From: an uncultured Gammaproteobacteria bacterium
GTDB taxonomy: Bacteria; Patescibacteriota; Patescibacteriia; 2-01-FULL-39-33
Direction of reading: 5' to 3'
NCBI GenBank assembly: GCA_964608895.1
Contig: CAZSPT010000003.1
Span: 1-32,007 of the forward strand
Length of the DNA: 32,007 nt
Part shown: in pieces, positions 2,549-30,452 of the stretch
Numbering within the stretch: position 1 is the first letter of the stretch
How the letters are laid out: the number at the start of each line of letters is the position of its first letter
Notes under the pieces: model-generated
The model's input: only the letters and a program-made list of their open reading frames with translations
Database searches by the model: none
Told to the model about the DNA's origin: nothing
Translations under genes and position numbers: made by a program

Positions 2549-3760
2549 TTAAAAATTACTTGAAAGCTGCCAAAGAGGCAGAAAGATGGCGGCGACAAAT
2601 CCGCCGACCGCCACTCCCAGAATAACGATAACAATCGGCTCAATCAAAACAGTTAAATTACTCACCTGATTGTCAATTTCTCGGGAGTAAAAATTGGTTA
2701 ATTTCTCCAACACCAACTCCAATTTTCCTGTTTCCTCGCCAACATTTATTATCTGGGAAACCAGCGGCGGAATGTCTTTACTGGCAACCAAACTGTCGGA
2801 AATTGAAGAACCTTCCCTGACTTCTCGAACCGTCTTTTGGAGAACCTCCTCAAAGACTCGGTTGCCAACCACTTTTTCGGCAGTTTCCAAAGCTTTGGCC
2901 GCCGGCACCCCTCCTTGAAACAAAGTGGCGAGATTTCTGGTGATTCTAACCAGATAAATATTCCGGAAAATTGAGCCAATCAAAGGCATCCGAATACTCC
3001 AAAGGTCAAAAATACGCCGGCCGGCTTCGGTTTTTTTAATCGCGACCGTCACTCCGACAACAAGCGCCAAAACCGCCAAAATAACCAACCACCAAAAATT
3101 ATTCAAAAAATTAGATATAGCAATAAGAATTTTGGTCAGTATGGGAAGTTCAGTCCCGGATTTTTCAAGCATCTCGGTCAACTGGGGGATGACAAAAGTA
3201 ATCATAACAAAACCGACTATTAGCAAACCAACAATAATCACCGAAGGATAAATCATGGCGTTCTTAACTTTCGCCCGGAGATCATAATCTTTTTCCTGCT
3301 GGTCGGCAAGATAATTCATTACTTCGCTCAACCGGCCGGAAGTTTCTCCCGAAGCGATGACATTAGTATAGAATTCGCTGAAAACCCGGGGATGGCCGCC
3401 CATCGCCTGGGAAAGCTTGGCTCCCCCATCAACCTCGTCGGCGATTGAAGAAATAACGCTCTTCAAATACTTGTTGCTTGTCTGACGGACGATGATTCTA
3501 AGCGACCTGACCACCGGCATGCTTGATTCCACCATTAAAGCCAGCTGGCGGAAAAAAATCACCAAATCTTTGGTTTTGACTCCGGTCAAAACTTCAATGT
3601 TGAATTTGTCGAAAAACCCTTTAGGTTTTGGAGCGATTGAAACAATCGCTAGTTTCTTGTTTTCTAAAAGTTCGGCAACCGCCTGTTCGTCGGCCGCTTC
3701 AACGACTCCTTCAATTGTTTCTCCGGCTTTGTTTTTCGCTTGATAAGAAAAAAGAGACAT
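2549..3760 (-). CDS. pilC: Type IV pilus platform protein PilC (GspF family)
   Basis: 403 aa. The GspF signature occurs twice (ASGETSGRLSEVM and VGEETGKLELVL), each followed by TM helices. This is the typical two-repeat polytopic architecture. Confidence 0.9.
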   Translation of the reverse strand: MSLFSYQAKNKAGETIEGVVEAADEQAVAELLENKKLAIVSIAPKPKGFFDKFNIEVLTGVKTKDLVIFFRQLALMVESSMPVVRSLRIIVRQTSNKYLKSVISSIADEVDGGAKLSQAMGGHPRVFSEFYTNVIASGETSGRLSEVMNYLADQQEKDYDLRAKVKNAMIYPSVIIVGLLIVGFVMITFVIPQLTEMLEKSGTELPILTKILIAISNFLNNFWWLVILAVLALVVGVTVAIKKTEAGRRIFDLWSIRMPLIGSIFRNIYLVRITRNLATLFQGGVPAAKALETAEKVVGNRVFEEVLQKTVREVREGSSISDSLVASKDIPPLVSQIINVGEETGKLELVLEKLTNFYSREIDNQVSNLTVLIEPIVIVILGVAVGGFVAAIFLPLWQLSSNF

Positions 3761-3766
3761 AAGCTG

Positions 3767-4153
3767 TTATTTCACCATTTTTTTTATTTTTTCAACCACT
3801 TCCGACGGCATAAAATGGGCTTTAATTAAATAATCGTCAGCACCCATTTCCAGACCTTTATCAACGTCGGATTTTTGACTTAAATTTGTTAAAAGAATTA
3901 CCGGAATATCTTGAAATTTCTTGCTCTCTTTTAGTTTTTCCAAAACGTCAAAACCGCTCATCTTCGGCAGGATTAAATCTAAAAGAATCAAATCCGGCTG
4001 CTTTTTTTTGATAATTTCCCAGCCTTTTTCGCCGTCATAAGCGACATAGACTTGAAAATCTTCCAACTCAAATTTCGTCCGGTACAAATCAGCCAAAAAA
4101 ACATCGTCTTCAACTATTAAAGTGGTAATTGTTTTTTGTTTTTTCTTAGCCAT
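3767..4153 (-). CDS. Stand-alone response-regulator receiver domain (CheY-like)
   Basis: The start is trimmed to MAKKKQKTITTLIVEDD (ATG 4153-4151), because the longer ORF would overlap pilB. Receiver motifs are present: acidic pair EDD, phospho-acceptor context LILLDLILPKMSG, LLTNLS, and Lys in DYLIKAH. There is no output domain. Confidence 0.85.
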   Translation of the reverse strand: MAKKKQKTITTLIVEDDVFLADLYRTKFELEDFQVYVAYDGEKGWEIIKKKQPDLILLDLILPKMSGFDVLEKLKESKKFQDIPVILLTNLSQKSDVDKGLEMGADDYLIKAHFMPSEVVEKIKKMVK

Positions 4154-4169
4154 TAAAAAATTATTATTT

Positions 4170-5969
4170 CTAAGACAATGGTTTGGAAACCGGCTTTTTA
4201 TCCGGTTTGGCTTCTTCGCCCTGCTGTTCCCTGATTTCTTCGGAAACCCGGACAATCTCTTCAATAGTCGTCACTCCCTGAACGGCCTTCAAAATTCCGT
4301 CTTGGGCAAGCCGAATATAGCCCTGACGATTCATCTGCTCAAGCGCGTCCTGATAGCTGAAATCCTTGGCAATCAGATTTTTGAACCGCTGGTCAATTTC
4401 CAAAACTTCGCTGACGACCGTCCGGCCGATGTAGCCGGTATTTTTACATTTTGAACAGCCTTGGCCGCGGTAGAATTTAAGTTTTCCTTTAAGCTTCTTG
4501 GCGAAATCCGGCGGCATTCTATCTATCTCTCCCTTAACTCTTTCTTCGGCTTTGGGAGAAATTTTGACTTCTTTCCGGCAATCAGGGCAAATTTTTCTAA
4601 CCAGCCGCTGTGCCATCACTAAATTTAAAGTTGAGGAAAGAAGAAACGGCTCAACTTGCATATCAAGGAGCCGGGGAACCGCTCCCCAGGCATTATTAGT
4701 GTGGAGAGTTGAAAAAACAAGATGGCCGGTTAAACCGGCGTGAATCGCCAGCTCGGCGGTTTCATTATCCCGAATTTCTCCAACCATGATAATATTGGGG
4801 TCTTGGCGAAGAATCGCCCGAAGACCCGAGGCAAAAGTATAGCCGATTTCCGGATTTATCTGGGACTGATTAACTCCTTCAATATAATATTCAATCGGAT
4901 CTTCCAAAGTGGTAATATTATTATCCTGGGCGTTAAGCATATTAAGAACGGAATAAAGGGTGGTAGTCTTTCCGGCTCCGGTCGGCCCGGTCAAAAGAAA
5001 CAGTCCGAACGGCTTTTTAATGTTGCGATCAATAATTTCAATGTGGTGGTCAAGGAAGCCGAGTTCGGCCAGAGTCGGCACTCCGGCCGAAGTGTCCAAA
5101 ACCCGCATAACCACTTTTTCATAATCCAAAGTCGGCAAAACCGAGACCCGCAAATCAATCTGGTGGTCGCCGACATTAGCCCGAATCCGGCCGTCTTGAG
5201 GCAACCGGGTTTCATCAAGCTTCAAATTGGCCAGCACTTTAATCCGAGAAACAACCGCGTTATAGAGATTGGGCGGCAGTGAAAGCGAAGAATGAAGAAT
5301 ACCGTCAACTCGGTAGCGAACTCGGCCGCCGCTCCGGCCGGGTTCAATATGGATATCAGAAGCTCCTCCTTCCAAAGCGTGCTTAATAATCACTGAAACT
5401 ATTTTTGCCACCGGAGCACTCTTAATCGCCGCCGTCAAATCTTTTTTACCCTGATTTTCAAGAACTTTTTCTTTTTCAGAAAACTTTACTTTGGCTGACT
5501 CCAAAGCGGTTCCGATTTCCTCTTTAAAACCCTGATAGCGCCGGGAAACTCGCTGAAAATCCCTTAAAGAAATGGCGAAAAATTCCGGCCTTAGGCCTTG
5601 TTGAGTCGCTAAAAACTCAATCGCTTCCCGAGCCTGAAAATTTCCGGGATTAACCAAGCCGGCCTTAAGCGCTCCTTCTTTTCGCTCAAAAACAACCATC
5701 TGATAGTTTTTAGCGACTTTCTGGCTCAGAGTGTTTAAAACCTCCGGAGAAATTTCCCGCTGGGATAAATCAGCCTTTTTCAGCTTGAAAATATCGGCTT
5801 TTGCCTGGGTTAATTTTTCTTCGGAAATCGCTTCTTCAGCCAGAAGAACTTCTTCCAAACTTTTACCGCTTTTAGATGTTTTGGCTTCGGCGGCGGTTAG
5901 AACTTTGGCGTCAATCAGCTTATTCTTTTTGAGAAAATCGTTTAATTTCCGATCAAGATTATTGACCAT
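4170..5969 (-). CDS. pilB: Type IV pilus assembly ATPase PilB (GspE family)
   Basis: 599 aa with an N-terminal GspE_N-like region. Motifs: Walker A GPTGAGKTTT, Walker B IIMVGEIRD, His box GHLVFSTLHTN, and the tetracysteine motif CPDC...CSKCKNTGY. Confidence 0.92.
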   Translation of the reverse strand: MVNNLDRKLNDFLKKNKLIDAKVLTAAEAKTSKSGKSLEEVLLAEEAISEEKLTQAKADIFKLKKADLSQREISPEVLNTLSQKVAKNYQMVVFERKEGALKAGLVNPGNFQAREAIEFLATQQGLRPEFFAISLRDFQRVSRRYQGFKEEIGTALESAKVKFSEKEKVLENQGKKDLTAAIKSAPVAKIVSVIIKHALEGGASDIHIEPGRSGGRVRYRVDGILHSSLSLPPNLYNAVVSRIKVLANLKLDETRLPQDGRIRANVGDHQIDLRVSVLPTLDYEKVVMRVLDTSAGVPTLAELGFLDHHIEIIDRNIKKPFGLFLLTGPTGAGKTTTLYSVLNMLNAQDNNITTLEDPIEYYIEGVNQSQINPEIGYTFASGLRAILRQDPNIIMVGEIRDNETAELAIHAGLTGHLVFSTLHTNNAWGAVPRLLDMQVEPFLLSSTLNLVMAQRLVRKICPDCRKEVKISPKAEERVKGEIDRMPPDFAKKLKGKLKFYRGQGCSKCKNTGYIGRTVVSEVLEIDQRFKNLIAKDFSYQDALEQMNRQGYIRLAQDGILKAVQGVTTIEEIVRVSEEIREQQGEEAKPDKKPVSKPLS

Positions 5970-6266: not shown

Positions 6267-6884
6267 CTATATTTTTGGATAATAATAAGTAGTAATTTCA
6301 AACTGGGAATTAGGTTCGGTTAACCCCAGCAAGAGTGAATTAACGTCAAAAAGCATAATACTTGATTCTAAGCCACCGAGCAGGCGCTTGAGCTGGGGAT
6401 AGCCGTCAGCAACCACTTTAGCTGAAATTTTAACCTTATTGATTCCGGAAATTTTGGGGCTAAAGCTTTCTTCGCCGGCTCGCTTTCTAACCGCTTCGGC
6501 CGGCTTGATTTCCAAACCGCTCAACTGACACCCATGGTTTTTGACCAACTGGCTGATTTGAATAATAATCGCCGGAACATCAAGTTTGGGCGGCAGAGCG
6601 AGATTAAGCAGACGAGCTTCGCTTTCAGAAAAATTTACCGGCGGCTCCTTGGCTAATTCAATCCGGCGCTCCTCCAGCCGAGCTAATTCCTTGTCCAGAC
6701 CATCCGTCTGCTGCTTAAGGGAGAATAAATTTTGAAACGGAGATTCCAAAATTAAAAAATAACCACCGGCCAAAAGTAAAACTCCAAGAAATCCGGACAA
6801 AAGAATCAAATAACGATTCAAAAAACCAGCAGTCAGTTTTTTGGTCTTGGTTTTTTCTTTTTTCGGTTGTTCTTGGTTAGTCAT
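6267..6884 (-). CDS. pilO: PilO-like pilus alignment protein
   Basis: 205 aa: a short basic N-terminus, one TM helix (YLILLSGFLGVLLLAGGYFLI), a coiled-coil segment (DGLDKELARLEERRIELAK) and then an alpha/beta domain. The call rests on gene order pilM-pilN-pilO. The sequence itself is weakly diagnostic. Confidence 0.6.
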   Translation of the reverse strand: MTNQEQPKKEKTKTKKLTAGFLNRYLILLSGFLGVLLLAGGYFLILESPFQNLFSLKQQTDGLDKELARLEERRIELAKEPPVNFSESEARLLNLALPPKLDVPAIIIQISQLVKNHGCQLSGLEIKPAEAVRKRAGEESFSPKISGINKVKISAKVVADGYPQLKRLLGGLESSIMLFDVNSLLLGLTEPNSQFEITTYYYPKI

Positions 6885-6897: not shown

Positions 6898-8451
6898 TTA
6901 ATCTAATTTTTTGAAAACTTCAGGGGCGATCTTCAAATTTAAATCGCAGGAAACTCCGGCAACTCCCCCACCGGGTTCGGAAACCAGGCTGATATTATCA
7001 ACCGAAACTTCTTTGACAAAATTATTTGATTGCTCAAAAGCGACAATTTGCCGCGCCAAAATTCCGTAATTGATCGCTTCAGTCGGCAAAACAAACTCTC
7101 CCGACAAATCAGCCGAGAATGACTTGTAATGAACTCCGTCTAAAGTGTATTTTTCCAAAAGCTCAAAAAAATCGGTCCAATAAACATGCTCTTTCCAAAG
7201 CTGGTCTATTTTTTCAACTTTTTTCCGGAGATAGCGGTTCTCTCGCCAATAATCCTCCCGCGGCCGGAGCTCTTGCTTCAATTCTCGGATTTTTTGATTT
7301 TGAACGGCAATTTTTTCCTGCTCGCTCTGACAAGCCAAAACAATCAACCAATAACAGCCAGCGATAACAACAGCCGGCAGAACCACCGCCAACACCAAAG
7401 CGAACACTTTTGTCCGGCGGCCGGGATGTTTAACCGATCCAAGCTCTTCAGGCATCAAATTAACCTCAAAATTACCTTTCTGCCGCTGGGGAGCAAGATG
7501 GTACTTTGATTTATTTTTTTTGTTGTCTTCCTGTTTTTGGTCCATTTGTTTTTGTTTTTGATTTTCTTTTTCCTTTTTTTTAAGCTGTCTTTTTCTTTCT
7601 TTTTCAGCTTGTTTTCTTCGCTCAGCTTCTTCTTTTTCCTGCCGCTTTCGTTCTTTTGCGGCTTGTTTTTCTTGTCTTTTTCTTTCTTTTTCAGCTTGTT
7701 TTCTTCGCTCGGTCTCTTCTTTTTCCTGCCGCTTTCGTTCTTTTGCGGCTTGTTTTTTCCGGCGCTTTTGCTCCTGCTCAGCCTGTTTTCTTTGAGCCGC
7801 CTCCTCTTGCTCTCTTTGTTTCCTGATTTCGGCCCGGCGCCGTTCAATTATTTTTTCCCGGCGATCCGGCTTATCGGCCGAGGGCTGAACCGACGGTGGA
7901 GCAGCTTTAAGCGGCACCAATTTCGGCTTAGCCGGCCGGGAAGCTCCGCCCATCCTCCAACGGCTGGATAATTTATTCCAAAAACTCTTCCAAAACGATT
8001 TTCGCGGCGGCCGGAAAGAAGTTTCCGGCTTAACCGGCTTAAATTCCGGAGAAGGCCGCCGGCTTGGCGGCCGGGATTTTTCTTCCAAATTTTTTATCGG
8101 CGACCGTGGCCGGCCGACCACGCTTTGCCAGCCGGATTTCTTCGGCCGCTGCTCCTTCGGCGGCTGACGATAAGAAATTTTTTGCCGCCGAGCCGACTTT
8201 AAAATATTCTGACTGGGCGTCTTGACCGGTTTAGGAACAACTGGCTCAATCTTCGGCTTTTTGGAAGGAAATTTTTTAAATAATTTATCCCAAAAAGATG
8301 GTTTTGACTTGGCTGAAATTTTTTCCGGCGAACGCTGCCGAGCCGGCTGGGAAAGTCCTATTTCAATCTTTTGGGACTTTCTCGCCCGCCTTTTCCGAAG
8401 TTTTTCTTCTTTTCGGCGGAGATCTTCCGGCAGTAAATTTATTTCAGCCAT
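6898..8451 (-). CDS. pilN: PilN-like protein with a very long charged cytoplasmic extension
   Basis: The N-terminus MAEINLLPEDLRRK matches the PilN INLLP motif. A second copy, FEVNLMPEELGSVK, sits just before the single TM helix (VFALVLAVVLPAVVIAGCYWLIVLA, about residues 349-373). A C-terminal periplasmic domain of about 145 aa follows. Between the two motifs lie about 320 residues rich in Pro/Lys/Arg and then in Glu/Arg/Lys. Confidence 0.7.
   Translation of the reverse strand: MAEINLLPEDLRRKEEKLRKRRARKSQKIEIGLSQPARQRSPEKISAKSKPSFWDKLFKKFPSKKPKIEPVVPKPVKTPSQNILKSARRQKISYRQPPKEQRPKKSGWQSVVGRPRSPIKNLEEKSRPPSRRPSPEFKPVKPETSFRPPRKSFWKSFWNKLSSRWRMGGASRPAKPKLVPLKAAPPSVQPSADKPDRREKIIERRRAEIRKQREQEEAAQRKQAEQEQKRRKKQAAKERKRQEKEETERRKQAEKERKRQEKQAAKERKRQEKEEAERRKQAEKERKRQLKKKEKENQKQKQMDQKQEDNKKNKSKYHLAPQRQKGNFEVNLMPEELGSVKHPGRRTKVFALVLAVVLPAVVIAGCYWLIVLACQSEQEKIAVQNQKIRELKQELRPREDYWRENRYLRKKVEKIDQLWKEHVYWTDFFELLEKYTLDGVHYKSFSADLSGEFVLPTEAINYGILARQIVAFEQSNNFVKEVSVDNISLVSEPGGGVAGVSCDLNLKIAPEVFKKLD
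7587..7760. repeat. Tandem 87-bp duplication (2 units, about 94% identical) inside pilN
   Basis: Units 7587-7673 and 7674-7760 both begin gtctttttctttctttttcagcttg. Each encodes 29 aa of the KQAAKERKRQEKEE(T/A)ERRKQAEKERKRQE repeat. More degenerate copies flank them. Confidence 0.85.
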
Positions 8452-8456: not shown

Positions 8457-9575
8457 TTATTCTATATTTCTCATCGCCAAACCAATCGCAACCGCGAACC
8501 TCGCTCCCAGACGATCAAGAATCGGCTTTAATTCAGTCGGATAAACTACTCGAGCCCAGGGATCACCGAGATGAACATTTAAATCAAACCGCTTAGACAA
8601 GTAGCCGGAAAGATTTCCCAAAAGGCTTGCTCCACCAGTCAAAATTATTTTTTCAACTTTTTTGCCGCTCTGTTGTTGATAAAGATTTAAAGTATATTTA
8701 ATTTCATTAATTGTCGTTTCCAAAGATTTTTCAACCACTTTGGGTAAAGAACTTTCGGCTCCTTCCTTGCCCAAAGCCAAATCCTGCTTAAACTGTTCGG
8801 CCCGCTCCATATTAACGTTAAGATTCTCGGAAATACTCCGGCTGACCATAAAGCCGCCGGCTTTAATACTCCGATTCATTAGAGGAATTCCTTTTTCAAC
8901 CACTGAAACACTTGAAGTGGAGGCTCCGAGGTCAACCACCATCACTATTGATTTGTCATTGCCGACTAAAGAGCGGATAAGAGCGAAATTTTCAGTTTCT
9001 AAACTTAGTAAATCAAGACCGCTCTCTTTAAAAATTCCAATGTATTTCTGAACCAAAACCTTGCTTGAGCCCGTCAAGAGGATTTTGAGATTTTTCTTTG
9101 GCTTGGAAAAAATCTTTTTCAAAGAATTGACCTGCTGGGAAATTTCACTTGCTTGAAATTCTTCCGGCCGCTCTTTATTAATCGGCAGTTCGCCAACAAC
9201 CTTCCAATCAAGAATCAGCTCCTCCAGCGGCATTGGAATAATTTTCTTCGCTTCCCAAGTAATTGCCGAGGCAAGCTCCTTTTTCGGCATTTCCGGCAAG
9301 GTAATAACCGAAGTAAAAACCGAAAAATTTGAAATGGCGGCAATTGCCTTACGGGAGGAAATCCGAGATTTCCGGCAGACGCTTTCAATCACTTCAGCGG
9401 TCTCTTTAACTTCGCCGAGCCGGCCGTCTCCGTTCCAGCGAGTCGGATCTTTTTCAGTAAAACCATAGGTAACCAACTTTGGCCGGCCTTTAAAATTTTC
9501 CAACTCAACCACTTTGACCGAAGAGGTCCCGATGTCAATTCCTAAAAAACTTTTGTCAGAGGAAAATAGTCCCAT
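8457..9575 (-). CDS. pilM: Type IV pilus assembly protein PilM (actin-like ATPase fold)
   Basis: 372 aa. Motifs: FLGIDIGTSSVKVVEL (phosphate-1), VVDLGASTSSVSVV and IILTGGASLLGNL. It lies directly upstream of pilN. Confidence 0.9.
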   Translation of the reverse strand: MGLFSSDKSFLGIDIGTSSVKVVELENFKGRPKLVTYGFTEKDPTRWNGDGRLGEVKETAEVIESVCRKSRISSRKAIAAISNFSVFTSVITLPEMPKKELASAITWEAKKIIPMPLEELILDWKVVGELPINKERPEEFQASEISQQVNSLKKIFSKPKKNLKILLTGSSKVLVQKYIGIFKESGLDLLSLETENFALIRSLVGNDKSIVMVVDLGASTSSVSVVEKGIPLMNRSIKAGGFMVSRSISENLNVNMERAEQFKQDLALGKEGAESSLPKVVEKSLETTINEIKYTLNLYQQQSGKKVEKIILTGGASLLGNLSGYLSKRFDLNVHLGDPWARVVYPTELKPILDRLGARFAVAIGLAMRNIE

Positions 9576-9589: not shown

Positions 9590-11425
9590 TCAAAAACTTC
9601 TGATAACCGGAAGGCCTTCAACAAATCCTCCCAGTCCCGGCGGCGGGTTGGCCGCCAACCGGCCGTCGTAGATAATCCTTTCCGAGCCCTGGCTTGGAGA
9701 AGTGTAAGTTCGGCGGAAGTCAAAGGCGTGGGCGATAACCACTCCTTTGGCGGTAAGCGGGTAGTTTGAAAATCCGGAAAAAAAGACTCCGCAACCGTTT
9801 GTCTGATACTCAGGGTATTCAGGATCGGAACCGGCTGTTTCCTGGCAAGAATTGCCGTTTCCCAAAAGAATAAAAGCGCCGACAATATCTTTAACATCCG
9901 GAGCGACAACAATATCTCCTTTGACTATCCAAGCGACCGAAGGCAGTTGATTTAATTCAGCCGGAAAAGCCCCGCTTTCATAATCAAAATCCCGATTAAG
10001 ATACAAATCTCCTTCAACGACAATCAGACCATTGCCGTAGCCGCCAAGCGGACCAATACCGAATTCATCCAAATTATTTATAGTCAAATCCCCGGCAGTA
10101 TGATAATAGACTTTGTCGCCCGGTCTAACTGTTCCGACAAATTCATCCGCCAAATCTCCGGCGATAATCTCTTGGCCGTATTTGTTATAATTTCTGCCAT
10201 TGGCAGTTTGGTAGACGGTGGTCAAACCGGCCAAATCAATCCGGCCCAAAGCGTTCCGATAAACTCTGCCGGCTCCCTCTTCTAAATAACCGAGCTCAAC
10301 ATCCTTAATCACTCCCTGCTGGCAATTGCTTGAAGAAACATTCTGGATGTCGTCGGCAAAAATACAGTAGCTGGCGTTCGCTCCCCCGCTCCCGGCCTTT
10401 TGCCGAATCTCTTTGCCGCTGTAAATACTGCCGAACTGGGTTTCCAACCAAGGCAAAACCACTAAAGCTCCTCCTGACAAAGGATTTAAATGGAGCCAGC
10501 CGGCGCCGGTCAGGCCGCTGGCGGTTCCGTCCCAAGCCCAGCCGACAATTTCACCGCTTTTCCAGTCAACATTGGTTCCGTAGAGCTCGCAGCTCGGACA
10601 ACTGTCGCATTCAATCCGAAAACTGCCGTCAATCGCGGCGACTTTCTGACAACCGGTGCAACAGTTTGAACAGCAGGTCGCTCCGGTACAAGCGGGGTCG
10701 GGTTCAGAATTGCCGCGGCCGCTGCCGGTGCAGACAAATTCGCTTCCCCGGTAAACCGGATCGTCGCCCGCCACTCCCGAAGGATGCTGACAATCAAGGT
10801 CGCAATTTGAGCCGGGTTCATAATTTCCCGAAGGCAGTCCTTCGCAAAAACAAGTATTACTAAAGCAAGTGAGGCAGTTTTCAAACTCGGTTTCGGAAAA
10901 ATCCAGACAGGGATCGCTGTCAACACAAACTTCTTCCCCTTGAGGAGTCGTCTGGCAGTTCTGGGTCCAAGCAAGACATTTTTTTTCACAGTCATAGCAT
11001 TGGTAGCCGGCCTGACCGCCGACTGAACCGCCCCGGCGGAAATGAATCCAACCGTCTTCCCCCAAAGAAACCACTTGGGCATAACCTTCAATTTTTCCGG
11101 AATTTCCATCCAAGCTGGCGGTTCGGCCGACCGTCGCTCCAAAACCGATCCAACCAAGATTGCTTGACCAGCCATAGCCGCTAAGATTGTTATTGGAATC
11201 AACTTGGACGCTGTAGTAATTAGAGCAGGTATCAACAGTGCAACTCGGCTGAGTATTGGCGATATTCAAAGAAATCCAACCGTAATTCTCCGACCAAGCC
11301 CAACCGCTTAAAGGATATTCTCCGGCTTGAGCACTTGTTTCTTGAAAATGAAAAACTAAAACAAAGACCGCCGCTAAAATAATCAGGGCTGATGAAAAGA
11401 ACAATATTTTCAAAAACTTAAGCAT
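9590..11425 (-). CDS. Secreted Cys-dense protein with Trp-rich GWAWS..GWI repeats (611 aa), function unknown
   Basis: It has a Sec-type signal (MLKFLKILFFSSALIILAAVFVLVF...TSAQA). Repeats: LSGWAWSENYGWISLN, LSGYGWSSNLGWIGFG, EDGWIHFR and IVGWAWDG...GAGWLHLN. The central core is extremely Cys-rich (CYDCEKKC, CLTCFSNTCFC, CCSNCCTGC, CDSCPSC). The C-terminal third is Cys-poor. Its stop is 14 nt before the pilM ATG. Confidence 0.75.
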   Translation of the reverse strand: MLKFLKILFFSSALIILAAVFVLVFHFQETSAQAGEYPLSGWAWSENYGWISLNIANTQPSCTVDTCSNYYSVQVDSNNNLSGYGWSSNLGWIGFGATVGRTASLDGNSGKIEGYAQVVSLGEDGWIHFRRGGSVGGQAGYQCYDCEKKCLAWTQNCQTTPQGEEVCVDSDPCLDFSETEFENCLTCFSNTCFCEGLPSGNYEPGSNCDLDCQHPSGVAGDDPVYRGSEFVCTGSGRGNSEPDPACTGATCCSNCCTGCQKVAAIDGSFRIECDSCPSCELYGTNVDWKSGEIVGWAWDGTASGLTGAGWLHLNPLSGGALVVLPWLETQFGSIYSGKEIRQKAGSGGANASYCIFADDIQNVSSSNCQQGVIKDVELGYLEEGAGRVYRNALGRIDLAGLTTVYQTANGRNYNKYGQEIIAGDLADEFVGTVRPGDKVYYHTAGDLTINNLDEFGIGPLGGYGNGLIVVEGDLYLNRDFDYESGAFPAELNQLPSVAWIVKGDIVVAPDVKDIVGAFILLGNGNSCQETAGSDPEYPEYQTNGCGVFFSGFSNYPLTAKGVVIAHAFDFRRTYTSPSQGSERIIYDGRLAANPPPGLGGFVEGLPVIRSF

Positions 11426-11452: not shown

Positions 11453-14400
11453 TTATTGGGAAGCAACCTTTAAGCATCTGAAATGAGCATAGCCATCATT
11501 TCCAAACCATCCATTGGTCACCCTGACTTCCCATTCCCGGCTGCCGTATAAGGTTTCAGCGTTGTCATCATTCAACGCAGAGGTGACCGGAGCAGAATAT
11601 ATTGTCTTGTACTTATCCTCCCAGTTAGACGACCCGACTCCGCCGCCAATAGCAACATATCCTTCCGGACAGCGGACTCTAAGCATATTAGAGCCCCATT
11701 TGCTCGGTATGCATTCCGATTCCGGATAAAGACATCCATCTTGAGCACAAGTGCAAGTAATAACTCCCAGAGAAAGATTATTAGTGATTTCTTGATTAAG
11801 GGAACCAAGACAATTTCCAGAACCATCGCAGACTTCTCCATCGGCGGAAATATCCCCTCCAACATTAAGATTGCCAGCGCTGTCAATGGTCATCTTGGTC
11901 GTCTCTTGACCATTTGTGGATCCGGGAGAAAAAACTATATCCCCATATTCCCTAAACTCCATTTTATTTTCATCTCGCCTAAACAAAATACGGTGATTGT
12001 TATCAAGACTCCTAATCTGGCCGTTGTCGGCAAAAAATATCTCTTGGCCAGAATTAAGATTAAAATCCCCTCTAACTTTCAAATTATCAGTCAACTCAAA
12101 GCGGGATTCACTATTATCCCAAAAAAGCTGCTTGCCAGTTCCCAGGGTTCCAAAAACAAGATTAATATCATCATCGGTAGGATCTTTATCCTGGCCGATA
12201 AGGGTTAGTTGGCCGTAACCGGTCAATTTTGCCTTAGAATTGCTACTGGGCACTCCGCCAATACCGACATTGCCGTTGCTGTAATAAATTCCGTCACTAT
12301 GCTCCTCCCAAAATCCGCCGCCACTGGCGCCGGCAATATCTGAAAGACAATTTCCAGAACCATCGCAGACTTCTCCTCCGGCAGAAATATTTCCATCCAA
12401 CATTAAGTTTCCATCAATTTTAACATAATCTTCAACTGATAAATCAATAATCGTTTGATCATCATGATGAGAAACTAAGTAATTAGTCTTAAGACTATTA
12501 GTGGCCTCAAAGTTAGTGGCCTCAAAGTTAGTGGCCTTGACCGAACCGCTGTAGTAAATTCCCTGACTGTCCTCCTCCCAAAATCCGGTTAACTCTTCAA
12601 CTGGATAACAGTTAGTGCCGTCCTGATTGCAATAATTTGAAGCTTGGATATTTCCGGAAACATAGAGATCGTTTGAAAACTTAAAATAATTATTAGCGGA
12701 AGACCAAAACAGCTGTTGCCAATTATTATTGTAATCCCCAAAAATAAGATGAATGTCCTGATTGGTCGTTTGACTGCCTTGGCCGATCCTTAAATTTCCC
12801 AAGTTATCAATAACCAGCCGATTTGCCTGAGAGTAATTTTTTTCTTTCCAAAATCTTAATTCATCAGTGCCTTGGTCGTGATAAATTGCCCAATGGTTGG
12901 TGCCGTCAAGAAAGCCGCCGCTCTGAATGTCAATCTCGGCGTTTCCGCTTTCTTGATAAACATGAATATTGGCGTTTGGACTAGCAGTGCCGATTCCGAC
13001 CTGACCGCTTCTTTTAGCGGCAAAAAAAGGATTAGTTTTGTTTCCTTCATAAAGGACAAAATCACTGTATTCGCTGTAGATTTCGCCATCATGCTCAACC
13101 ACCAGCCGATCCCGGCCGCCGGCTGACTGAACACTGAAAAGAGGGGCGCCGGAATAGGGATTGGATTCCGGCCGAATCGCGACGCCGGTTGAATAGTTGG
13201 AAGCGTCTTGTTCGTTGATAGAATATTTGTTGCCGCTCGGGTCTAAAACATGAACTTCGCCTTCGTAAATGATTTGGTCAGCTCCATCCTGCTCCCAAAA
13301 TCCGCCGCCACTGGCGCCGGCAATATCTGAAAGACAATTTTTAAAACCATCGCAGACTTCTCCTCCAACATCAAGATTGCCAGCATAAATTTCAAAATTT
13401 CCGGATGAATCAAATCTTGCTCTCTCCACATTATTGGTGAATATCCCCAGCTGGTCGTCTCCTTGCTGCTGAAAGCCGGTATCATTGTCTCCAATCGCCA
13501 ATTGGAGCGCCGGGTCATCAACGGCGTGTGTGCTACCGGCAGTGAGGGATTTTCCAATACCGACATTGCCGTAGTCACTATCTTTAATAGTAAAAACATC
13601 GCTAAAACCGTTTCGCCTGATAACGAAATTTTCGCTGTCATTTTTTCCAGAATACCATTTTTCATTACTGCCTGACTTAATAACAGTGCCGACATATTCG
13701 CCCTCTGCTCCTTTGATAGTAATTATATCTCCCTGGTCAGAGCCGTTGCCAACAGTTAAACCGGAGGTTCTCGCCTGAAAAAAAGAATTAGTTTTGTTTC
13801 CTCCGTAAAGGACAAAATCACTGTATTCGCTGTAAACTTCGCCGGCGTGCTCAACCACCAGCCGATCTCGGCCGCCGGCTGACTGAACACTGAAAAGAGG
13901 GTCGCCGGAATCGGGATTGGATTCCGGCCGAATCGCGACGCCGGTTGAATAGTTGGAAGCGTCTTGTTCGTTGATAGAATATTTGTTGCCGCTCGGGTCT
14001 AAAACATGAACTTCGCCTTCGTAAATGATTTGGTCAACTCCATCCTGATCCCAAAATCCGGCTGCGCCGCCGCCGGCGCCACCGGCACCAACATTTGAAA
14101 GACAATTGCCGTTAAAACACGCGTCAGATGAAAATTCAAATTGTTCATCAACATTATTCCAAGATAAGGTTTGATCATCTTCATTAACAGCGCTATTACT
14201 GAATATTAAAGATTTATTTCCTTCTCTTTCTTTTCCAATTTCCAAATCCCTTCCTCCAACTGATAATTTTCCCGACCCTGAAAGTAAATCAGTCGTGCCA
14301 ATACCGACATTGCCGTCAGTATCAATTTTCATCATAACGGTTCCGGGAGTTTCAAGCCCAGGCTGGGTAAAAATCCTGAAATCATTATGATTTGGATGCT

Positions 14401-15340
14401 TGTCAATAAGCCAAATTAAATTATTTTCCGGATCTTTTTCATCTCCCAATATTATGCGAGGCTGGGAGCCGTTAATTAAAAGTTTATCAACAACATGCAA
14501 ATCAACTTTAGGATCAGTCGTGCCAATTCCGACATTGCCGTCAGTATCAATTCTCATTCCTTCAATAAAGCCACCTACTCCATCACCATGAATAAATGAC
14601 AATGAATTTCGACTTGAAGCTTGATCACCTCGATTTGAAATATGCCAAGTCTTATTATTATCACTGTCAGAAAGAATTAAACGGCCGGCATGTTGAACGT
14701 CTAAACCGCTTGAATCAACTATTAAATTTCCGTAAAAACTGGCGTCGCCGTCAGGATTAATTGTGAAAGTTTTTAAATAATTTTCATTATTGTCTTTCCG
14801 CCAAATTTCAAAATTATGATTATTATCCTTGCGGTGATACAACCCCCAATTCCAACTGTCTCCCTGGAGTAAAACTCCGGAATATTGATATATATCTCCG
14901 TCACCGCTAAGATTTAAAAAAGCAGCATTATTTCCAGTTCGCGGTCCAATATAGACATTTCCCTGGCTATAACCAATACCGTCATTACGCAATTTCCAAT
15001 ATCCACTCTTTGAATCACTACACTCCCAATGGCCGACGTCGTGATAAGTCAAAATCTCTCCTTCATTGCATTCCATAATGCTTAAAAAAACTTTCTCTTT
15101 ATTGTCACTCCAGTTGCCAAAAATTTCGCCATCAAATTGGGTATCTTGGTTTAAAGGCGGGGCAATATTTCCTTGAGGTGGCGGCGAAGAAGGCTCTTGC
15201 CAAGCAGCTGAAGCAAAATTAAAACCAGCCCCGAAGAACAGTCCGAAAATCACTGCCAGGCTGGTCAAAATCTTTAATTTTAGCCAAAATAAACCAAAAT
15301 TAAGGGATGGTTTTTTACCCTGTCTGCCACCTTCCGTCAT
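11453..15340 (-). CDS. Giant secreted/surface protein (1295 aa) with phage-tail-fibre-like reiterated modules
   Basis: Signal or anchor LKILTSLAVIFGLFFGAGFNFASA is followed by AWQEPSSPPPQGNIAPPLN. DTDGNVGIGTTD occurs twice. A (G)GEVCDG(S/F)(G/K)NCL..GGFWE module occurs three times, plus one degenerate copy (CFNGNCLSNVG..AGFWD). Two units of about 100 aa are nearly identical. The C-terminal domain of about 110 aa contains Cys (CPEGYVAIGGG...FRCLK). Its stop is 27 nt before the next gene. Confidence 0.8.
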   Translation of the reverse strand: MTEGGRQGKKPSLNFGLFWLKLKILTSLAVIFGLFFGAGFNFASAAWQEPSSPPPQGNIAPPLNQDTQFDGEIFGNWSDNKEKVFLSIMECNEGEILTYHDVGHWECSDSKSGYWKLRNDGIGYSQGNVYIGPRTGNNAAFLNLSGDGDIYQYSGVLLQGDSWNWGLYHRKDNNHNFEIWRKDNNENYLKTFTINPDGDASFYGNLIVDSSGLDVQHAGRLILSDSDNNKTWHISNRGDQASSRNSLSFIHGDGVGGFIEGMRIDTDGNVGIGTTDPKVDLHVVDKLLINGSQPRIILGDEKDPENNLIWLIDKHPNHNDFRIFTQPGLETPGTVMMKIDTDGNVGIGTTDLLSGSGKLSVGGRDLEIGKEREGNKSLIFSNSAVNEDDQTLSWNNVDEQFEFSSDACFNGNCLSNVGAGGAGGGAAGFWDQDGVDQIIYEGEVHVLDPSGNKYSINEQDASNYSTGVAIRPESNPDSGDPLFSVQSAGGRDRLVVEHAGEVYSEYSDFVLYGGNKTNSFFQARTSGLTVGNGSDQGDIITIKGAEGEYVGTVIKSGSNEKWYSGKNDSENFVIRRNGFSDVFTIKDSDYGNVGIGKSLTAGSTHAVDDPALQLAIGDNDTGFQQQGDDQLGIFTNNVERARFDSSGNFEIYAGNLDVGGEVCDGFKNCLSDIAGASGGGFWEQDGADQIIYEGEVHVLDPSGNKYSINEQDASNYSTGVAIRPESNPYSGAPLFSVQSAGGRDRLVVEHDGEIYSEYSDFVLYEGNKTNPFFAAKRSGQVGIGTASPNANIHVYQESGNAEIDIQSGGFLDGTNHWAIYHDQGTDELRFWKEKNYSQANRLVIDNLGNLRIGQGSQTTNQDIHLIFGDYNNNWQQLFWSSANNYFKFSNDLYVSGNIQASNYCNQDGTNCYPVEELTGFWEEDSQGIYYSGSVKATNFEATNFEATNSLKTNYLVSHHDDQTIIDLSVEDYVKIDGNLMLDGNISAGGEVCDGSGNCLSDIAGASGGGFWEEHSDGIYYSNGNVGIGGVPSSNSKAKLTGYGQLTLIGQDKDPTDDDINLVFGTLGTGKQLFWDNSESRFELTDNLKVRGDFNLNSGQEIFFADNGQIRSLDNNHRILFRRDENKMEFREYGDIVFSPGSTNGQETTKMTIDSAGNLNVGGDISADGEVCDGSGNCLGSLNQEITNNLSLGVITCTCAQDGCLYPESECIPSKWGSNMLRVRCPEGYVAIGGGVGSSNWEDKYKTIYSAPVTSALNDDNAETLYGSREWEVRVTNGWFGNDGYAHFRCLKVASQ
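12307..12379. repeat. Dispersed intragenic repeat (73 bp), copy 1, encoding the GEVCDG.GNCLSDIAGASGGGFWE module
   Basis: cccaaaatccgccgccactggcgccggcaatatctgaaagacaatttccagaaccatcgcagacttctcctcc recurs at 13294-13366 with 3 mismatches. A partial 36-bp copy lies at 11808-11843. Confidence 0.85.
12499..12538. repeat. 15-bp tandem repeat (about 2.6 units) encoding ATNFEATNFEATN
   Basis: tagtggcctcaaagt occurs twice, followed by a partial third unit. It is in frame within the giant gene. Confidence 0.8.
13031..13304. repeat. 274-bp intragenic direct repeat, copy B
   Basis: It aligns without gaps to 13787-14060 (offset 756 bp = 252 codons). I count about 12 mismatches by eye, and the central stretch of about 120 bp is identical. 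It encodes FWEQDGADQIIYEGEVHVLDPSGNKYSINEQDASNYSTGVAIRPESNP... Confidence 0.9.
13294..13366. repeat. Dispersed intragenic repeat (73 bp), copy 2
   Basis: Same string as 12307-12379, except tttttaaaacc replaces tttccagaacc. Confidence 0.85.
13787..14060. repeat. 274-bp intragenic direct repeat, copy A
   Basis: Partner of 13031-13304. It encodes FWDQDGVDQIIYEGEVHVLDPSGNKYSINEQDASNYSTGVAIRPESNP... Confidence 0.9.
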
Positions 15341-21618: not shown

Positions 21619-22338
21619 ATGTTTTTCAAGAAAAAAATTCCAAACCGCCTCGGGCCGATTTTGATAGTCTTATTCTTGTTCACCGCCGTAATTTTCGGAT
21701 TAATCGGCTGGCGGGCGGCTGCTTGGCGGGCGGAAATTCTCAATTATTTGGAAAATTATCCGGATCAAACCCAATCAAAAGAATTAATTTCCCGAAACTT
21801 GGTAAGCTACCGGGAGCCGCCAACCGCCACTAAGCCGGAAATAACCGCTGATTCTCCGACTAAAGGACTGGCAGAAGCGCCGATAACCATTTTTGAATTT
21901 TCTTCGTTTGACTGCTCCTACAGCCGGGAAATCCAGCCGATTCTGGAAAAAATTATCGCTCAATATCCCGAGCAAATAAAACTGGTTTGGAAGGACCTGC
22001 CGATCAGCGATCAAGCCCGGCCGGCTCACTTGGCCGCCCGCTGCGCCCAAAATCAAGGAGAATTCTGGGACTATCACGATAAACTTTGGGAAAATCAAAA
22101 AAATCTAACCACTGACAAACTTAAAAAAATCGCCCAAGAACTCGGACTTAGCCAAAATCAATTCAATTCTTGTCTGGAAGAAAAGCAAACCAAATCAACG
22201 GTTAATCAAGATATTGAAGAAGGAAATATCCTTTTAATCAGCGGCACTCCCCACTTCTACCTTAACAGCCAGGAACTGTTCGGCCTGGCGACTCTTGAAG
22301 ACTTTCAAAAAATAATTGAAATTGAATTAAGCAAATGA
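21619..22338 (+). CDS. DsbA-family thioredoxin-fold protein with a CxxS (CSYS) active-site motif
   Basis: 239 aa with an N-terminal TM anchor. ITIFEFSSFDCSYSREIQPIL aligns with the usual (E/D)F.D..CP.C block. The downstream AARCAQNQGEFWDYHDKLW and ISGTPHFYLN blocks are typical of the DsbA/Thioredoxin_4 family. Confidence 0.7.
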   Translation: MFFKKKIPNRLGPILIVLFLFTAVIFGLIGWRAAAWRAEILNYLENYPDQTQSKELISRNLVSYREPPTATKPEITADSPTKGLAEAPITIFEFSSFDCSYSREIQPILEKIIAQYPEQIKLVWKDLPISDQARPAHLAARCAQNQGEFWDYHDKLWENQKNLTTDKLKKIAQELGLSQNQFNSCLEEKQTKSTVNQDIEEGNILLISGTPHFYLNSQELFGLATLEDFQKIIEIELSK

Positions 22339-29474: not shown

Positions 29475-29567
<93 letters not shown>

Positions 29568-30448: not shown

Positions 30449-30452
30449 TTTT

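What the first reader, a model, noticed from the sequence alone, without database searches (positions are those of the whole stretch)
6898..8451. PilN with two INLLP-type motifs separated by a ~320-residue polybasic / ER-K spacer
Canonical PilN proteins carry one short cytoplasmic INLLP peptide, which binds PilM, about 20 residues before the TM helix. Here that position holds FEVNLMPEELGSVK (about residues 328-341, with the TM at about 349-373). A second, better copy (AEINLLPEDLRRK) sits at the extreme N-terminus. Between them are about 190 residues rich in Pro/Lys/Arg/Ser, then about 110 residues of uninterrupted Glu/Arg/Lys/Gln repeats. These repeats include an 87-bp tandem duplication at 7587-7760. 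That composition is typical of charged single alpha-helices or coiled coils. The protein could bind two PilM copies, or hold a PilM ring far from the membrane. The tandem DNA repeats make the spacer length evolvable.
Basis: partly seen in the sequence, partly recalled or inferred. Interest (0 to 1): 0.65.

Follow-up and report, generated by a model that had tools for sequence, protein, structure and literature searches.

The report
PilN with two PilM-docking motifs
This gene encodes the PilN membrane component of a type IV pilus machine from an uncultured Patescibacteria (CPR) bacterium; its cytoplasmic tail is about ten times the usual length and carries the PilM-docking peptide twice, a layout shared by most of the closest 150 members of a large, apparently undescribed PilN family.

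Summary
ORF 6898-8451 (-) encodes a 517-aa single-TM protein between pilM and a pilO-like gene. It has INLLP at residues 4-8, VNLMP at 330-334 (14 residues before the TM, 349-374), a polybasic Pro-rich stretch (21-195), a 121-residue ER/K stretch (196-316) and an 87-bp x2 tandem repeat.

This is a family trait. Of 138 complete homologue representatives, 108 carry both motifs, 29-575 residues apart (median 224). Chance background for the strict motif is 2 hits in 42,875 positions. The two motifs match each other over 14 columns (hhalign 92%). The membrane-proximal copy aligns with the INLLP of Myxococcus PilN. The N-terminal copy heads a conserved ~60-residue module that ends in an aromatic-basic amphipathic helix (KKSFWxKIFG). 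The long ER/K rod and its repeat are specific to this lineage (6 of 109 spacers).

Best reading: a divergent PilN that offers two PilM-docking peptides, one at the machine base and one on a polybasic tether that probably lies on the membrane. Binding is inferred. AlphaFold chimeras were equivocal: N-terminal motif pLDDT about 67, proximal below 40. Repeat-number variation could not be tested. I found no description in the searched literature. New variant of a known kind.

The parts
6898..8451 (-). pilN-like gene, 517 aa plus stop codon
   Evidence: ORF. Lies between pilM and the pilO-like gene. The family profile hits PilN 3jc8_Na. Pfam PilN hits 30 of 90 homologues.
8410..8451 (-). N-terminal INLLP-type motif, residues 1-14 (MAEINLLPEDLRRK)
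   Evidence: Family consensus is M-x-[DNE]-I-N-L-L-P-[ED]-[DE]-L-R-x-K, with N in 96, L in 99 and 105, and P in 98 of 108. Matches the proximal motif profile over 14 columns, hhalign probability 92%.
8269..8451 (-). Conserved N-terminal module, residues 1-61: INLLPEDLR, a charged helix, a KIEIGLSQP element and the amphipathic KPSFWDKLFKKF
   Evidence: Alignment A5 of 50 homologues. The aromatic motif lies 42-45 residues after INLLP in most. AF2 predicts helices at PilN residues 9-31 and 53-57.
8269..8304 (-). Aromatic-basic amphipathic helix 1, residues 50-61 (KPSFWDKLFKKF); proposed in-plane membrane anchor
   Evidence: Among the highest hydrophobic moments in the cytoplasmic tail (0.64, against a maximum of 0.70). 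Motifs of this type average 1.0 per spacer against 0.036 in shuffles. W54 is at least 90% conserved. Membrane binding is inferred.
7867..8268 (-). Polybasic, Pro/Ser-rich disordered spacer, residues 62-195. Includes the element KKSGWQSVVGRPRSPIK (103-120), shared by close relatives.
   Evidence: Composition. Alignment with L001-L003. Family spacers are K 17%, P 10%, with net charge positive in 106 of 109.
7954..8004 (-). Aromatic-basic amphipathic motif 2, residues 150-166 (RKSFWKSFWNKLSSRWR)
   Evidence: Comparable SFW/SWW motifs recur in the L001, L002 and L008 spacers.
7504..7866 (-). ER/K segment, residues 196-316; probably a single alpha-helix about 17 nm long. Lineage-specific.
   Evidence: E 26, K 30, R 22, Q 19, A 11, no Pro or Gly, 5 hydrophobic residues, and dense i/i+3 and i/i+4 opposite-charge pairs. 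Only 6 of 109 family spacers have an ER/K run of 30 residues or more. Helicity is inferred; this segment was not modelled.
7586..7757 (-). 87-bp tandem duplication (2.0 copies, 96%), encoding two 29-aa repeats (residues 234-262 and 263-291)
   Evidence: TRF. Copies compared in codon register. Copy number is not independently covered by other assemblies.
7435..7476 (-). Membrane-proximal INLLP-type motif, residues 326-339 (GNFEVNLMPEELGS), 14 residues before the TM
   Evidence: Family consensus is [LF]-[DN]-[VI]-N-L-[IM]-P-E-E-L, with N in 99, L in 101 and P in 104 of 108, lying 17-24 residues before the TM window. It is the copy that aligns with the INLLP of M. xanthus PilN.
7330..7407 (-). 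Single transmembrane helix, residues 349-374
   Evidence: The only hydrophobic segment in the protein, Kyte-Doolittle peak 2.65.
6901..7329 (-). Extracytoplasmic part, residues 375-517: a helical stalk, then the PilN-type domain (conserved HxYWTxFFxLLEKYTLD...)
   Evidence: 1616 representatives match this part at E<=1e-3. Pfam PF05137 aligns to this domain in homologues, for example P0003 residues 308-387 to profile positions 2-77 of 78. W425, F428, F429, L432, E433 and T436 are nearly invariant or invariant.
8457..9575 (-). pilM (372 aa), the presumed partner of both motifs; its stop is 5 nt before the pilN ATG
   Evidence: Pfam PilM_2 1.2e-42. TIGR01175 1.6e-50. The AF2 model best matches PilM structures 5eox, 5eou, 2ych and 3jc8.
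6267..6884 (-). pilO-like gene (205 aa; single TM with a coiled coil)
   Evidence: Position and topology. The same gene follows pilN in L002, L003, L006 and L008. No significant Pfam hit.

Best explanation
The gene encodes the PilN subunit of the PilM-PilN-PilO platform of a type IV pilus machine in a Patescibacteria (CPR) bacterium.

The architecture and family membership below are shown, and I hold them at about 0.9. In this PilN family the cytoplasmic tail has grown from the usual 20-30 residues to 100-600 residues. The 12-14-residue PilM-docking peptide is present twice.
- Copy 2 (residues 326-339) keeps the canonical place, about 15-20 residues before the TM helix. I infer that it holds a PilM against the membrane at the base of the machine, as in Thermus, Pseudomonas and Myxococcus.
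- Copy 1 (residues 1-14) opens a conserved 60-residue N-terminal module that ends in an aromatic-basic amphipathic helix (KPSFWDKLFKKF).

The binding steps are inferred. I propose that the N-terminal module is a second, self-contained PilM adaptor: a docking peptide plus an in-plane membrane anchor. It would be joined to the machine by a polybasic, Pro-rich disordered tether that lies along the anionic inner leaflet. Each PilN would then capture two PilM molecules, or keep one PilM on a leash while it leaves and re-enters the proximal site. This would raise local PilM concentration and could build a wider or double PilM scaffold under the membrane.

In this organism the tether also contains a 121-residue ER/K stretch, probably a stiff single alpha-helix about 17 nm long. 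A recent 87-bp tandem duplication lengthened it. This is a lineage-specific way of setting tether length, not part of the conserved mechanism.
For: Identity as PilN:
- The operon order is pilM-pilN-pilO-like-small TM protein-pilB-response regulator-pilC. The part from pilM to pilB recurs in L002, L003, L006 and L008.
- The family profile hits M. xanthus PilN 3jc8 at E 7e-4, with the proximal motif aligned to its INLLP.
- Pfam PilN hits the C-terminal domain in 30 of 90 members.

Both motifs are selected:
- 108 of 138 complete representatives carry both, each with its own consensus.
- The strict motif has a background of 2 in 42,875 positions.
- The two motif profiles align over 14 columns, dINL[LI]PE[DE]L, at 92% probability. 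That is the length of the PilN peptides crystallised with PilM: PilN1-12 in 5eou (title) and PilN1-15 (PMC6325625).
- PilM is the only known receptor for this peptide. Per the cited literature, PilN's N-terminus binds the IA-IC cleft of PilM and recruits otherwise soluble PilM to the membrane (PMC7613929; PMC6325625; PMC13039148).

The tether:
- Spacers are K 17% and P 10%, and net positive in 106 of 109.
- Aromatic-basic motifs average 1.0 per spacer against 0.036 in shuffles, and sit at a fixed 42-45 residues after motif 1.
- KPSFWDKLFKKF has one of the highest hydrophobic moments of the tail (0.64).

AlphaFold2:
- In the chimera PilN1-62+PilM+PilN306-347, PilN residues 1-10 have mean pLDDT 67 and residues 11-20 have 87, with no alignment rows for that part.
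- The PilM part superposes best on the two PilN-bound PilM crystal structures: 5eou_B at rmsd 3.8 and 2ych_A at TM 0.86.
Against: - No binding was shown.
- In the competition chimera the proximal motif stayed at pLDDT 34-39.
- When the N-terminal motif was fused directly to the PilM C-terminus, its I-N-L residues fell below pLDDT 50.
- Only pLDDT and secondary structure were visible, not contacts. A highly charged helix can score well on its own.
- One pilM gene is seen in the 32-kb window, and pilM and pilN look translationally coupled. That suggests roughly 1:1 synthesis rather than 2:1.
- Membrane binding by the aromatic-basic motifs and helicity of the ER/K stretch are inferred from composition only.
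- The window protein itself gets no Pfam PilN hit.
Confidence: 0.55

Rival explanations
1. Division of labour. Only one copy binds PilM. Given the AF2 preference this would be the N-terminal one; given the canonical position it would be the proximal one. The other copy has been retained to bind a different partner, for example the N-terminal MshEN domain of the PilB ATPase, PilC, the operon's response regulator, or the cytoplasmic end of the PilO-like protein.
For: The flanks of the two copies differ consistently: LR-x-KE-x-KE after copy 1, a preceding [LF][DN] and a following hydrophobic stretch for copy 2. In the AF2 competition only the N-terminal copy gained confidence. PilM in other systems also contacts PilB (PMC6325625), so the base of the machine has several cytoplasmic partners.
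Against: The two profiles share the whole 14-column core, and N, L and P are equally conserved in both. No receptor for INLLP other than PilM is known. No candidate partner was tested.
Confidence: 0.22
2. Intramolecular competition or switch. The two copies compete for the single cleft of the same PilM. PilM is handed between a membrane-proximal (engaged) and a tethered (disengaged) position, which regulates extension versus idling.
For: Near-identical cores. One pilM gene next to pilN, with apparent translational coupling. A long flexible tether allows the N-terminus to fold back on its own base.
Against: No signal-sensing element was found in the tail. Spacer length varies 20-fold (29-575 residues), which fits poorly with a tuned switch. 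Untested.
Confidence: 0.13
3. The polybasic tail is mainly a nucleic-acid-binding or crowding element, resembling histone-H1-like K/P/A-rich tails. It would be linked to pilus-dependent DNA uptake, and the N-terminal INLLP would be an evolutionary relic of a duplication.
For: Net charge is up to +98 with a median of +20, and the composition is K/P/S/A-rich with SPIK/KPKK-type elements. CPR pili are discussed in connection with DNA uptake (PMC6744442).
Against: A relic would not keep N, L, L, P at about 90% or more across clusters sharing under 50% identity. PilN's tail is not on the known DNA entry route. Untested.
Confidence: 0.06
4. Artefact. The long ORF results from a wrong start (true start Met333) or from an assembly or frameshift error in low-complexity DNA, and only a short, ordinary PilN is made.
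For: The low-complexity DNA also yields spurious overlapping ORFs on both strands. The repeat region 7715-7836 is not covered by independent contigs. An internal ATG exists at 7455.
Against: The same architecture, with an uninterrupted ORF, appears in L001-L003 and L006-L008 and in 108 of 138 representatives. Residue 333 is I, M, L or V in homologues, and a start there would cut the motif. The N-terminal module is conserved at the protein level. The ATG lies 5 nt after the pilM stop. None of 23 genes in the window has an upstream GGAG or GAGG element (one has only AAGG), so the GAGG before Met333 carries no weight.
Confidence: 0.03

Closest known systems
Canonical PilN of type IVa pili (Thermus thermophilus, Pseudomonas aeruginosa, Myxococcus xanthus; Pfam PF05137; PDB 2YCH, 5EOU, 3JC8)
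   Same: Bitopic N-in protein encoded directly after pilM and before pilO. It has an INLLP-type peptide about 15-20 residues before the TM helix, an extracytoplasmic helical stalk and a PilN-type domain. The family profile aligns to M. xanthus PilN over the motif, TM and stalk.
   Different: Canonical PilN has a cytoplasmic tail of about 30 residues with one motif at the extreme N-terminus (PMC7613929; M. xanthus motif at residue 3). Here the tail is 348 residues (100-600 across the family). The motif occurs twice, and a conserved 60-residue N-terminal module and a polybasic spacer lie between the copies. Sequence divergence is large: the window protein gets no Pfam hit.
GspL / PulL of type II secretion and the Amuc_1101-type PilM-PilN fusion proteins (NCBIfam NF045709)
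   Same: These are another way of changing how the PilM-like and PilN-like parts are connected. Residues 325-435 weakly match the PilN portion of NF045709 (E 2e-4). PulL is described as a PilM-PilN fusion (PMC10191384).
   Different: Those proteins have a folded actin-like PilM domain covalently joined to the TM segment. Here PilM is a separate gene, and the N-terminal extension is low-complexity with short linear motifs, not an actin fold.
FtsN-FtsA interaction in the divisome
   Same: A bitopic membrane protein uses a short cytoplasmic peptide to bind the IA-IC cleft of an actin-like protein related to PilM. Per the paper, peptide binding changes the polymer state of FtsA to double filaments (PMC7613929). 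This is a precedent for peptide valency affecting the assembly of an actin-like scaffold.
   Different: A different machine, a different binding mode within the cleft, and one peptide per FtsN. FtsA has its own C-terminal amphipathic membrane helix. Here the amphipathic helix sits on the PilN tail.
ER/K single alpha-helix (SAH) domains, known for example from myosin lever-arm extensions (from general knowledge)
   Same: A run of about 120 residues made almost only of E, K, R, Q and A. It has no Pro or Gly, almost no hydrophobic residues, and dense i/i+4 opposite charges.
   Different: Its helicity and monomeric state were not tested. It sits in a bacterial membrane protein's cytoplasmic tail, and only 6 of 109 family members have one of 30 residues or more.

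Membership tests
PilN (type IVa pilus alignment/platform protein) | Encoded in a pilM-pilN-pilO gene cluster together with the pilB ATPase and pilC platform genes | tested here: met
   pilM at 8457-9575 (PilM_2 1.2e-42), pilB at 4170-5969 (T2SSE 1.9e-124), pilC at 2549-3760 (T2SSF 2.1e-60), and a pilO-like gene at 6267-6884. The same order from pilM to pilB is seen in L002, L003, L006 and L008.
PilN (type IVa pilus alignment/platform protein) | Bitopic topology: cytoplasmic N-terminus, one TM helix, extracytoplasmic C-terminal part | tested here: met
   One hydrophobic segment, 349-374, preceded by basic residues (RRTK). Orientation is inferred from the positive-inside rule and from homology.
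PilN (type IVa pilus alignment/platform protein) | INLLP-type peptide about 15-25 residues before the TM helix | tested here: met
   VNLMP at 330-334, 14 residues before V349. Aligned to the INLLP of M. xanthus PilN. Present in 111 of 138 homologues by the strict pattern.
PilN (type IVa pilus alignment/platform protein) | C-terminal PilN domain recognised by Pfam PF05137 | tested here: inconclusive
   The window protein has no hit even at E<=10. Among homologues, 30 of 90 hit at E<=0.01, best 4.1e-7. The hit maps to the C-terminal domain, but the one member whose score was printed (P0003, 20.7 bits) lies below the gathering score of 22.8. No 3-D model of this domain was made.
PilN (type IVa pilus alignment/platform protein) | Short cytoplasmic tail (about 30 residues) with a single motif at the extreme N-terminus | tested here: not met
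   The tail is 348 residues with two motifs. This is the point of difference, so the protein is filed as a variant rather than a typical member.
PilN (type IVa pilus alignment/platform protein) | The N-terminal peptide binds the IA-IC cleft of PilM | tested here: inconclusive
   In the AF2 chimeras, N-terminal motif pLDDT was about 67 when free at the N-terminus and below 50 when fused directly to the PilM C-terminus. The proximal motif scored 34-39. Contacts could not be inspected.
ER/K single alpha-helix (SAH) domain | Long run rich in E, K and R with i/i+4 opposite charges, no Pro or Gly and no hydrophobic heptad | tested here: met
   Residues 196-316: E 26, K 30, R 22, Q 19, A 11, P 0, G 0, and 5 hydrophobic residues. 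The charge-pair score is 0.3-0.54 per residue, against 0.1 or less in most of the rest of the protein.
ER/K single alpha-helix (SAH) domain | Stable monomeric alpha-helix in solution | not testable with these tools
   Needs CD and SAXS of the isolated segment. This segment was not included in the two AF2 jobs.
GspL / PilM-PilN fusion (NF045709 Amuc_1101 family) | Actin-like PilM domain covalently N-terminal to the PilN-like TM segment | tested here: not met
   No PilM, FtsA or actin hit in residues 1-345. Only residues 325-435 match the PilN portion of NF045709 (E 2e-4, 20 bits against a cutoff of 650).

The most novel reading that the evidence does not exclude
Each PilN in these CPR pilus machines binds two PilM molecules at once. 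The cytoplasmic face of the machine would then be a double or laterally extended, membrane-pinned PilM scaffold (2:1 PilM:PilN) rather than the single PilM ring of model bacteria. Scaffold reach would be set by a fast-evolving tether, here an ER/K rod that grows by tandem duplication. By analogy with FtsN-driven FtsA double filaments, bivalent PilN would control PilM polymer state. It would be a CPR-specific solution for coupling the motor ATPases to the platform.
Probability: 0.3. Interest if true: 0.75.

Novelty: new variant of a known kind. Interest (0 to 1): 0.6.

Why it matters
Type IV pili are among the few systems enriched across Patescibacteria and are needed for their attachment to host bacteria and for motility (PMC6744442, PMC12206443). 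How PilM couples the membrane platform to the motor ATPases is still an open question even in model organisms.

A large natural family in which the PilM-docking peptide is duplicated gives a ready-made experiment on stoichiometry and tethering in the PilMNO platform. The copies are separated by 29-575 residues. The family comprises 1616 representative clusters at E<=1e-3, and 78% of the closest 138 complete representatives carry both copies.

It also gives simple, testable predictions: a 2:1 complex, membrane binding by the aromatic-basic helices, and separate phenotypes for mutations in each motif. For annotation, this family is missed or scored below threshold by the Pfam PilN model, so its members are probably often annotated only as hypothetical proteins.

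Tried and rejected
1. Pfam and NCBIfam on the window protein and on its C-terminal 200 residues gave no PilN hit. The only signal was a weak match to the PilN part of NF045709.
2. The search for homologous proteins with the C-terminal 200 residues and with the N-terminal-module profile returned nothing, because of the word index and the E-value scale. The exhaustive representative search worked instead.
3. The N-terminal-module profile against PDB sequences gave only chance hits.
5. Read-level repeat variation: only two microbial-mat runs hold the locus, as low-depth Logan contigs (2-9x) that break in the repeat. There are no RNA runs. The protein is a singleton at 90% identity, so no near relatives exist for comparing copy number.
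6. An internal start at Met333 was rejected.
7. A coiled coil for the ER/K stretch was rejected: 5 hydrophobic residues in 121 and no heptad.
8. A degenerate PilM domain in the extension (GspL-like) was rejected.
9. The idea that the whole N-terminal module is a duplicate of motif plus TM was tested by hhalign. Similarity stops after 14 columns, so only the peptide is demonstrably duplicated.
10. Literature searches on PilN with INLLP, Patescibacteria, candidate phyla radiation, Parcubacteria, or disordered/extension found no description of a dual-motif PilN. The library does not cover most subscription journals.
Full report
**The observation**

The window holds one uninterrupted ORF at 6898..8451 on the minus strand (517 aa). 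It starts at the first start codon after the upstream stop, 5 nt after the stop of the preceding gene. The translation shows:
- MAEINLLPEDLRRK at residues 1-14.
- FEVNLMPEELGSVK at residues 328-341.
- A single hydrophobic segment at 349-374.
- A K/P/S/R-rich stretch at residues 21-195.
- A stretch at 196-316 made of E 26, K 30, R 22, Q 19 and A 11, with no Pro or Gly and five hydrophobic residues.

Tandem Repeats Finder reports an 87-bp unit in 2.0 copies at 96% identity at 7586-7757. This corresponds to two 29-residue repeats, 27 of 29 identical.

**The gene and its organism**

The flanking genes form a type IV pilus operon on the minus strand:
- pilM at 8457-9575 (Pfam PilM_2 1.2e-42; TIGR01175 1.6e-50).
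- This gene.
- A 205-aa bitopic pilO-like gene.
- A small protein of about 94 aa with one TM.
- pilB (T2SSE 1.9e-124).
- A response regulator.
- pilC (T2SSF 2.1e-60).

Among the best 120 PilM relatives (listed hits range from 67% down to 49% identity), every one that carries a taxon name is from Patescibacteria: Buchananbacteria, Falkowbacteria, Portnoybacteria, Kerfeldbacteria or Parcubacteria. The only runs holding the locus are microbial-mat metagenomes.

The window protein gets no Pfam PilN hit. An exhaustive phmmer search with its last 200 residues finds 1616 representative clusters at E<=1e-3. A profile of 90 of them hits Myxococcus xanthus PilN (PDB 3jc8) at E 7e-4, across the motif, the TM and the stalk. 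Pfam PilN hits the C-terminal domain in 30 of those 90, best 4.1e-7. It is a divergent PilN.

**The double motif is a family trait**

In seven related loci whose PilM is at least about 50% identical, the gene after pilM starts M-x-x-INLL[PK] and carries a second [DN][IV]N[LF]xP just before the TM. The loci are L001-L003 (genome scan) and L006-L008, labelled Buchanan-, Falkow-, Portnoy- and Kerfeldbacteria or simply "bacterium". L007 has the INLLK variant.

Of the best 150 representatives, 138 look complete. Of these, 108 (78%) carry both motifs by a loose pattern and 87 by a strict one. Many of the remainder show degenerate versions or truncated gene calls. The strict pattern occurs only twice in 42,875 background positions.

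The distance between the motifs ranges from 29 to 575 residues, median 224. Each copy has its own consensus:
- N-terminal: M-x-[DNE]-I-N-L-L-P-[ED]-[DE]-L-R-x-K-E-x-K.
- Proximal: [LF]-[DN]-[VI]-N-L-[IM]-P-E-E-L, lying 17-24 residues before the TM window.

Profile-profile comparison aligns the two copies over 14 columns at 92% probability, and no further. That is the length of the PilN peptides that were crystallised with PilM: PilN1-12 in 5eou and PilN1-15 (PMC6325625). The proximal copy is the positional equivalent of the canonical motif. The N-terminal copy is the addition.

**The tail between the motifs**

The first roughly 60 residues form a conserved module. It consists of INLLPEDLR, a charged helix (KE-x-KE...), an element resembling (R/K)PKVFEVELSxP, and, 42-45 residues after the motif in most members, DKPKKS[FW]WxKIFG.

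In the window protein this last element is KPSFWDKLFKKF (50-61). It has one of the highest helical hydrophobic moments in the tail (0.64), and AF2 predicts a short helix there. A second such element, RKSFWKSFWNKLSSRWR, lies at 150-166. Motifs of this kind average 1.0 per spacer, against 0.036 in shuffled spacers.

Family spacers are K 17% and P 10%. They are net positive in 106 of 109, with a median charge of +20. By composition this looks like a tether that lies on an anionic membrane surface, pinned by in-plane aromatic helices. That is an inference.

The ER/K stretch is not a family feature. Only 6 of 109 spacers have any ER/K run of 30 residues or more, and the 117-residue run here is the longest. 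Close relatives have Pro/Lys-rich or His-rich sequence at that place. Its composition fits a single alpha-helix rather than a coiled coil. At 0.15 nm per residue it would be about 17 nm long.

**Is the long ORF real?**

The same uninterrupted architecture appears in independent assemblies and in more than 100 clusters, and the N-terminal module is conserved at the protein level. Residue 333 is I, M, L or V in homologues, so it cannot be a conserved start, and starting there would cut the motif.

A GAGG lies 8 nt before that ATG. However, none of 23 genes in the window has an upstream GGAG or GAGG element (one has only AAGG), so this means nothing here.

Logan contigs from two runs match several parts of the gene exactly. 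They break in the repeat and leave 7715-7836 uncovered. The protein is a singleton at 90% identity. The two-copy state and any copy-number variation therefore could not be checked.

**Test of PilM binding**

Two AlphaFold2 jobs were available, and only pLDDT and secondary structure are returned.
- PilM followed directly by PilN1-62: the I-N-L residues scored below 50, and the following helix scored 80-86. This design leaves no linker, so it is uninformative for the motif.
- PilN1-62 + PilM + PilN306-347: mean pLDDT was 67 for PilN 1-10 and 87 for 11-20. The proximal motif stayed at 34-39.

The PilM part is a confident PilM fold. It superposes best on the two PilN-bound PilM crystal structures, 5eou_B (rmsd 3.8) and 2ych_A (TM 0.86). 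This is weak support for docking of the N-terminal copy and no support for the proximal copy under competition. It does not settle the question.

**Mechanism**

Established knowledge, as stated in the cited papers:
- PilN's N-terminal peptide binds the IA-IC cleft of PilM (PMC7613929).
- PilM is soluble alone and becomes membrane-bound through PilN, and PilM must be bound to PilN to stimulate the ATPase (PMC6325625).
- PilN-PilO bind a ring of PilM (PMC13039148).

Two equally conserved copies of the whole docking peptide, with PilM as the only known receptor, make a bivalent PilM tether the most economical reading. One PilM would sit at the canonical site. A second would be held by an N-terminal adaptor module with its own membrane anchor, or the same PilM would be kept on a leash.

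I put about 0.9 on the identity and architecture and about 0.55 on both copies being PilM-docking sites. The rivals are:
- Division of labour between the copies (0.22).
- A competition switch (0.13).
- A nucleic-acid-binding tail with a relic motif (0.06).
- An artefact (0.03).

**Comparison with known systems and novelty**

The protein works like PilN and belongs to the PilN family by context, topology, proximal motif and family-level profile hits. It fails the "short tail, single N-terminal motif" feature, so it is a variant. It is not a GspL-type or Amuc_1101-type PilM-PilN fusion, because the extension has no actin fold.

Full-text searches found no description of a dual-motif or long-tailed PilN. 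The CPR PilN family is mentioned only as a CPR-enriched family (PMC6744442). The library lacks most subscription journals, so prior description cannot be excluded.

**Verdict**

The finding is a new variant of a known kind, of moderate to high interest, because it affects a whole family central to CPR biology and gives direct, cheap tests.

Noticed in passing
window 9093-9203 (-), PilM residues about 125-161: Relative to the Pfam model, PilM has an inserted loop that AF2 predicts as disordered (pLDDT below 50 at residues 135-153). The loop ends in KKIFSKPKKN. In the alignment of 120 PilM relatives the consensus there is KKIFSKPxKN, and it resembles the basic-aromatic KKSFWxKIFG motif of the PilN tail. 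It may share a partner with that motif, possibly the membrane.
   Followed up: partly
window 9590-11425 (-) and 11453-15340 (-): Two large genes directly upstream of pilM encode a 611-aa Cys-rich protein and a 1295-aa protein. Both have N-terminal hydrophobic segments and no Pfam hit. Proteins of similar size (608 or 614 aa, and over 769 aa) also precede pilM in L006 and L008. They may be pilus-associated surface proteins.
   Followed up: partly
window 13022-13321 and 13778-14077; also 12299-12404 and 13286-13391: The 1295-aa gene contains a 300-nt direct repeat at 94% identity, 756 nt apart, and a 106-nt repeat at 86%. This points to recent internal duplication of a domain of about 100 residues.
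   Followed up: partly
whole window, 22 nt upstream of 23 gene starts: No gene has a GGAG or GAGG Shine-Dalgarno element upstream; only one has even AAGG. The upstream regions are A/T-rich instead, so this organism apparently does not rely on Shine-Dalgarno pairing.
   Followed up: partly
window 3767-4264 (-): A stand-alone response-regulator receiver gene sits between pilB and pilC. A receiver gene also follows pilB in L003 and L006, which suggests phosphorylation-dependent control of this pilus machine.
   Followed up: no
window 22335-23141 (+) and 23132-23953 (+): Two adjacent paralogous genes match the type IV secretion pilin family (T4SS_pilin, about 1e-9; TrbC/VirB2 weakly). They lie just after a DsbA-like thioredoxin gene (21619-22338).
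   Followed up: no
window 29489-31922: This low-GC end (0.35-0.375, against about 0.44 elsewhere) holds an N6/N4 DNA methylase, a MutH-like endonuclease and an IS1595-family transposase. It is probably a mobile restriction-modification island.
   Followed up: no
window 7455-7847 (-) and 7537-7971 (+): ORFs of 130 and 144 aa in other frames overlap the ER/K and polybasic coding DNA. Their products are low-complexity (K-rich, or F/L/S-rich), and they look like by-products of the repetitive purine-rich sequence.
   Followed up: partly
L004:5984-7318 and L005:7074-7847: More distant PilN relatives (PilM 41-45% identical) differ. L005 has a short tail with a single Pro-less motif (VNLVKDE). L004 has a long K-rich tail and the same Pro-less proximal motif (ANLIKDQ), but no clear N-terminal INLLP. 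They may mark the state before, or after loss of, the duplication.
   Followed up: partly
window 7477-7503 (-), residues 317-325: A short element YH[LS]AP[KQ]x[EQ]K lies just upstream of the proximal motif in the window protein and L001, L003, L006 and L008. A pattern of this kind occurs in 24 of 150 representatives. Its function is unknown.
   Followed up: partly
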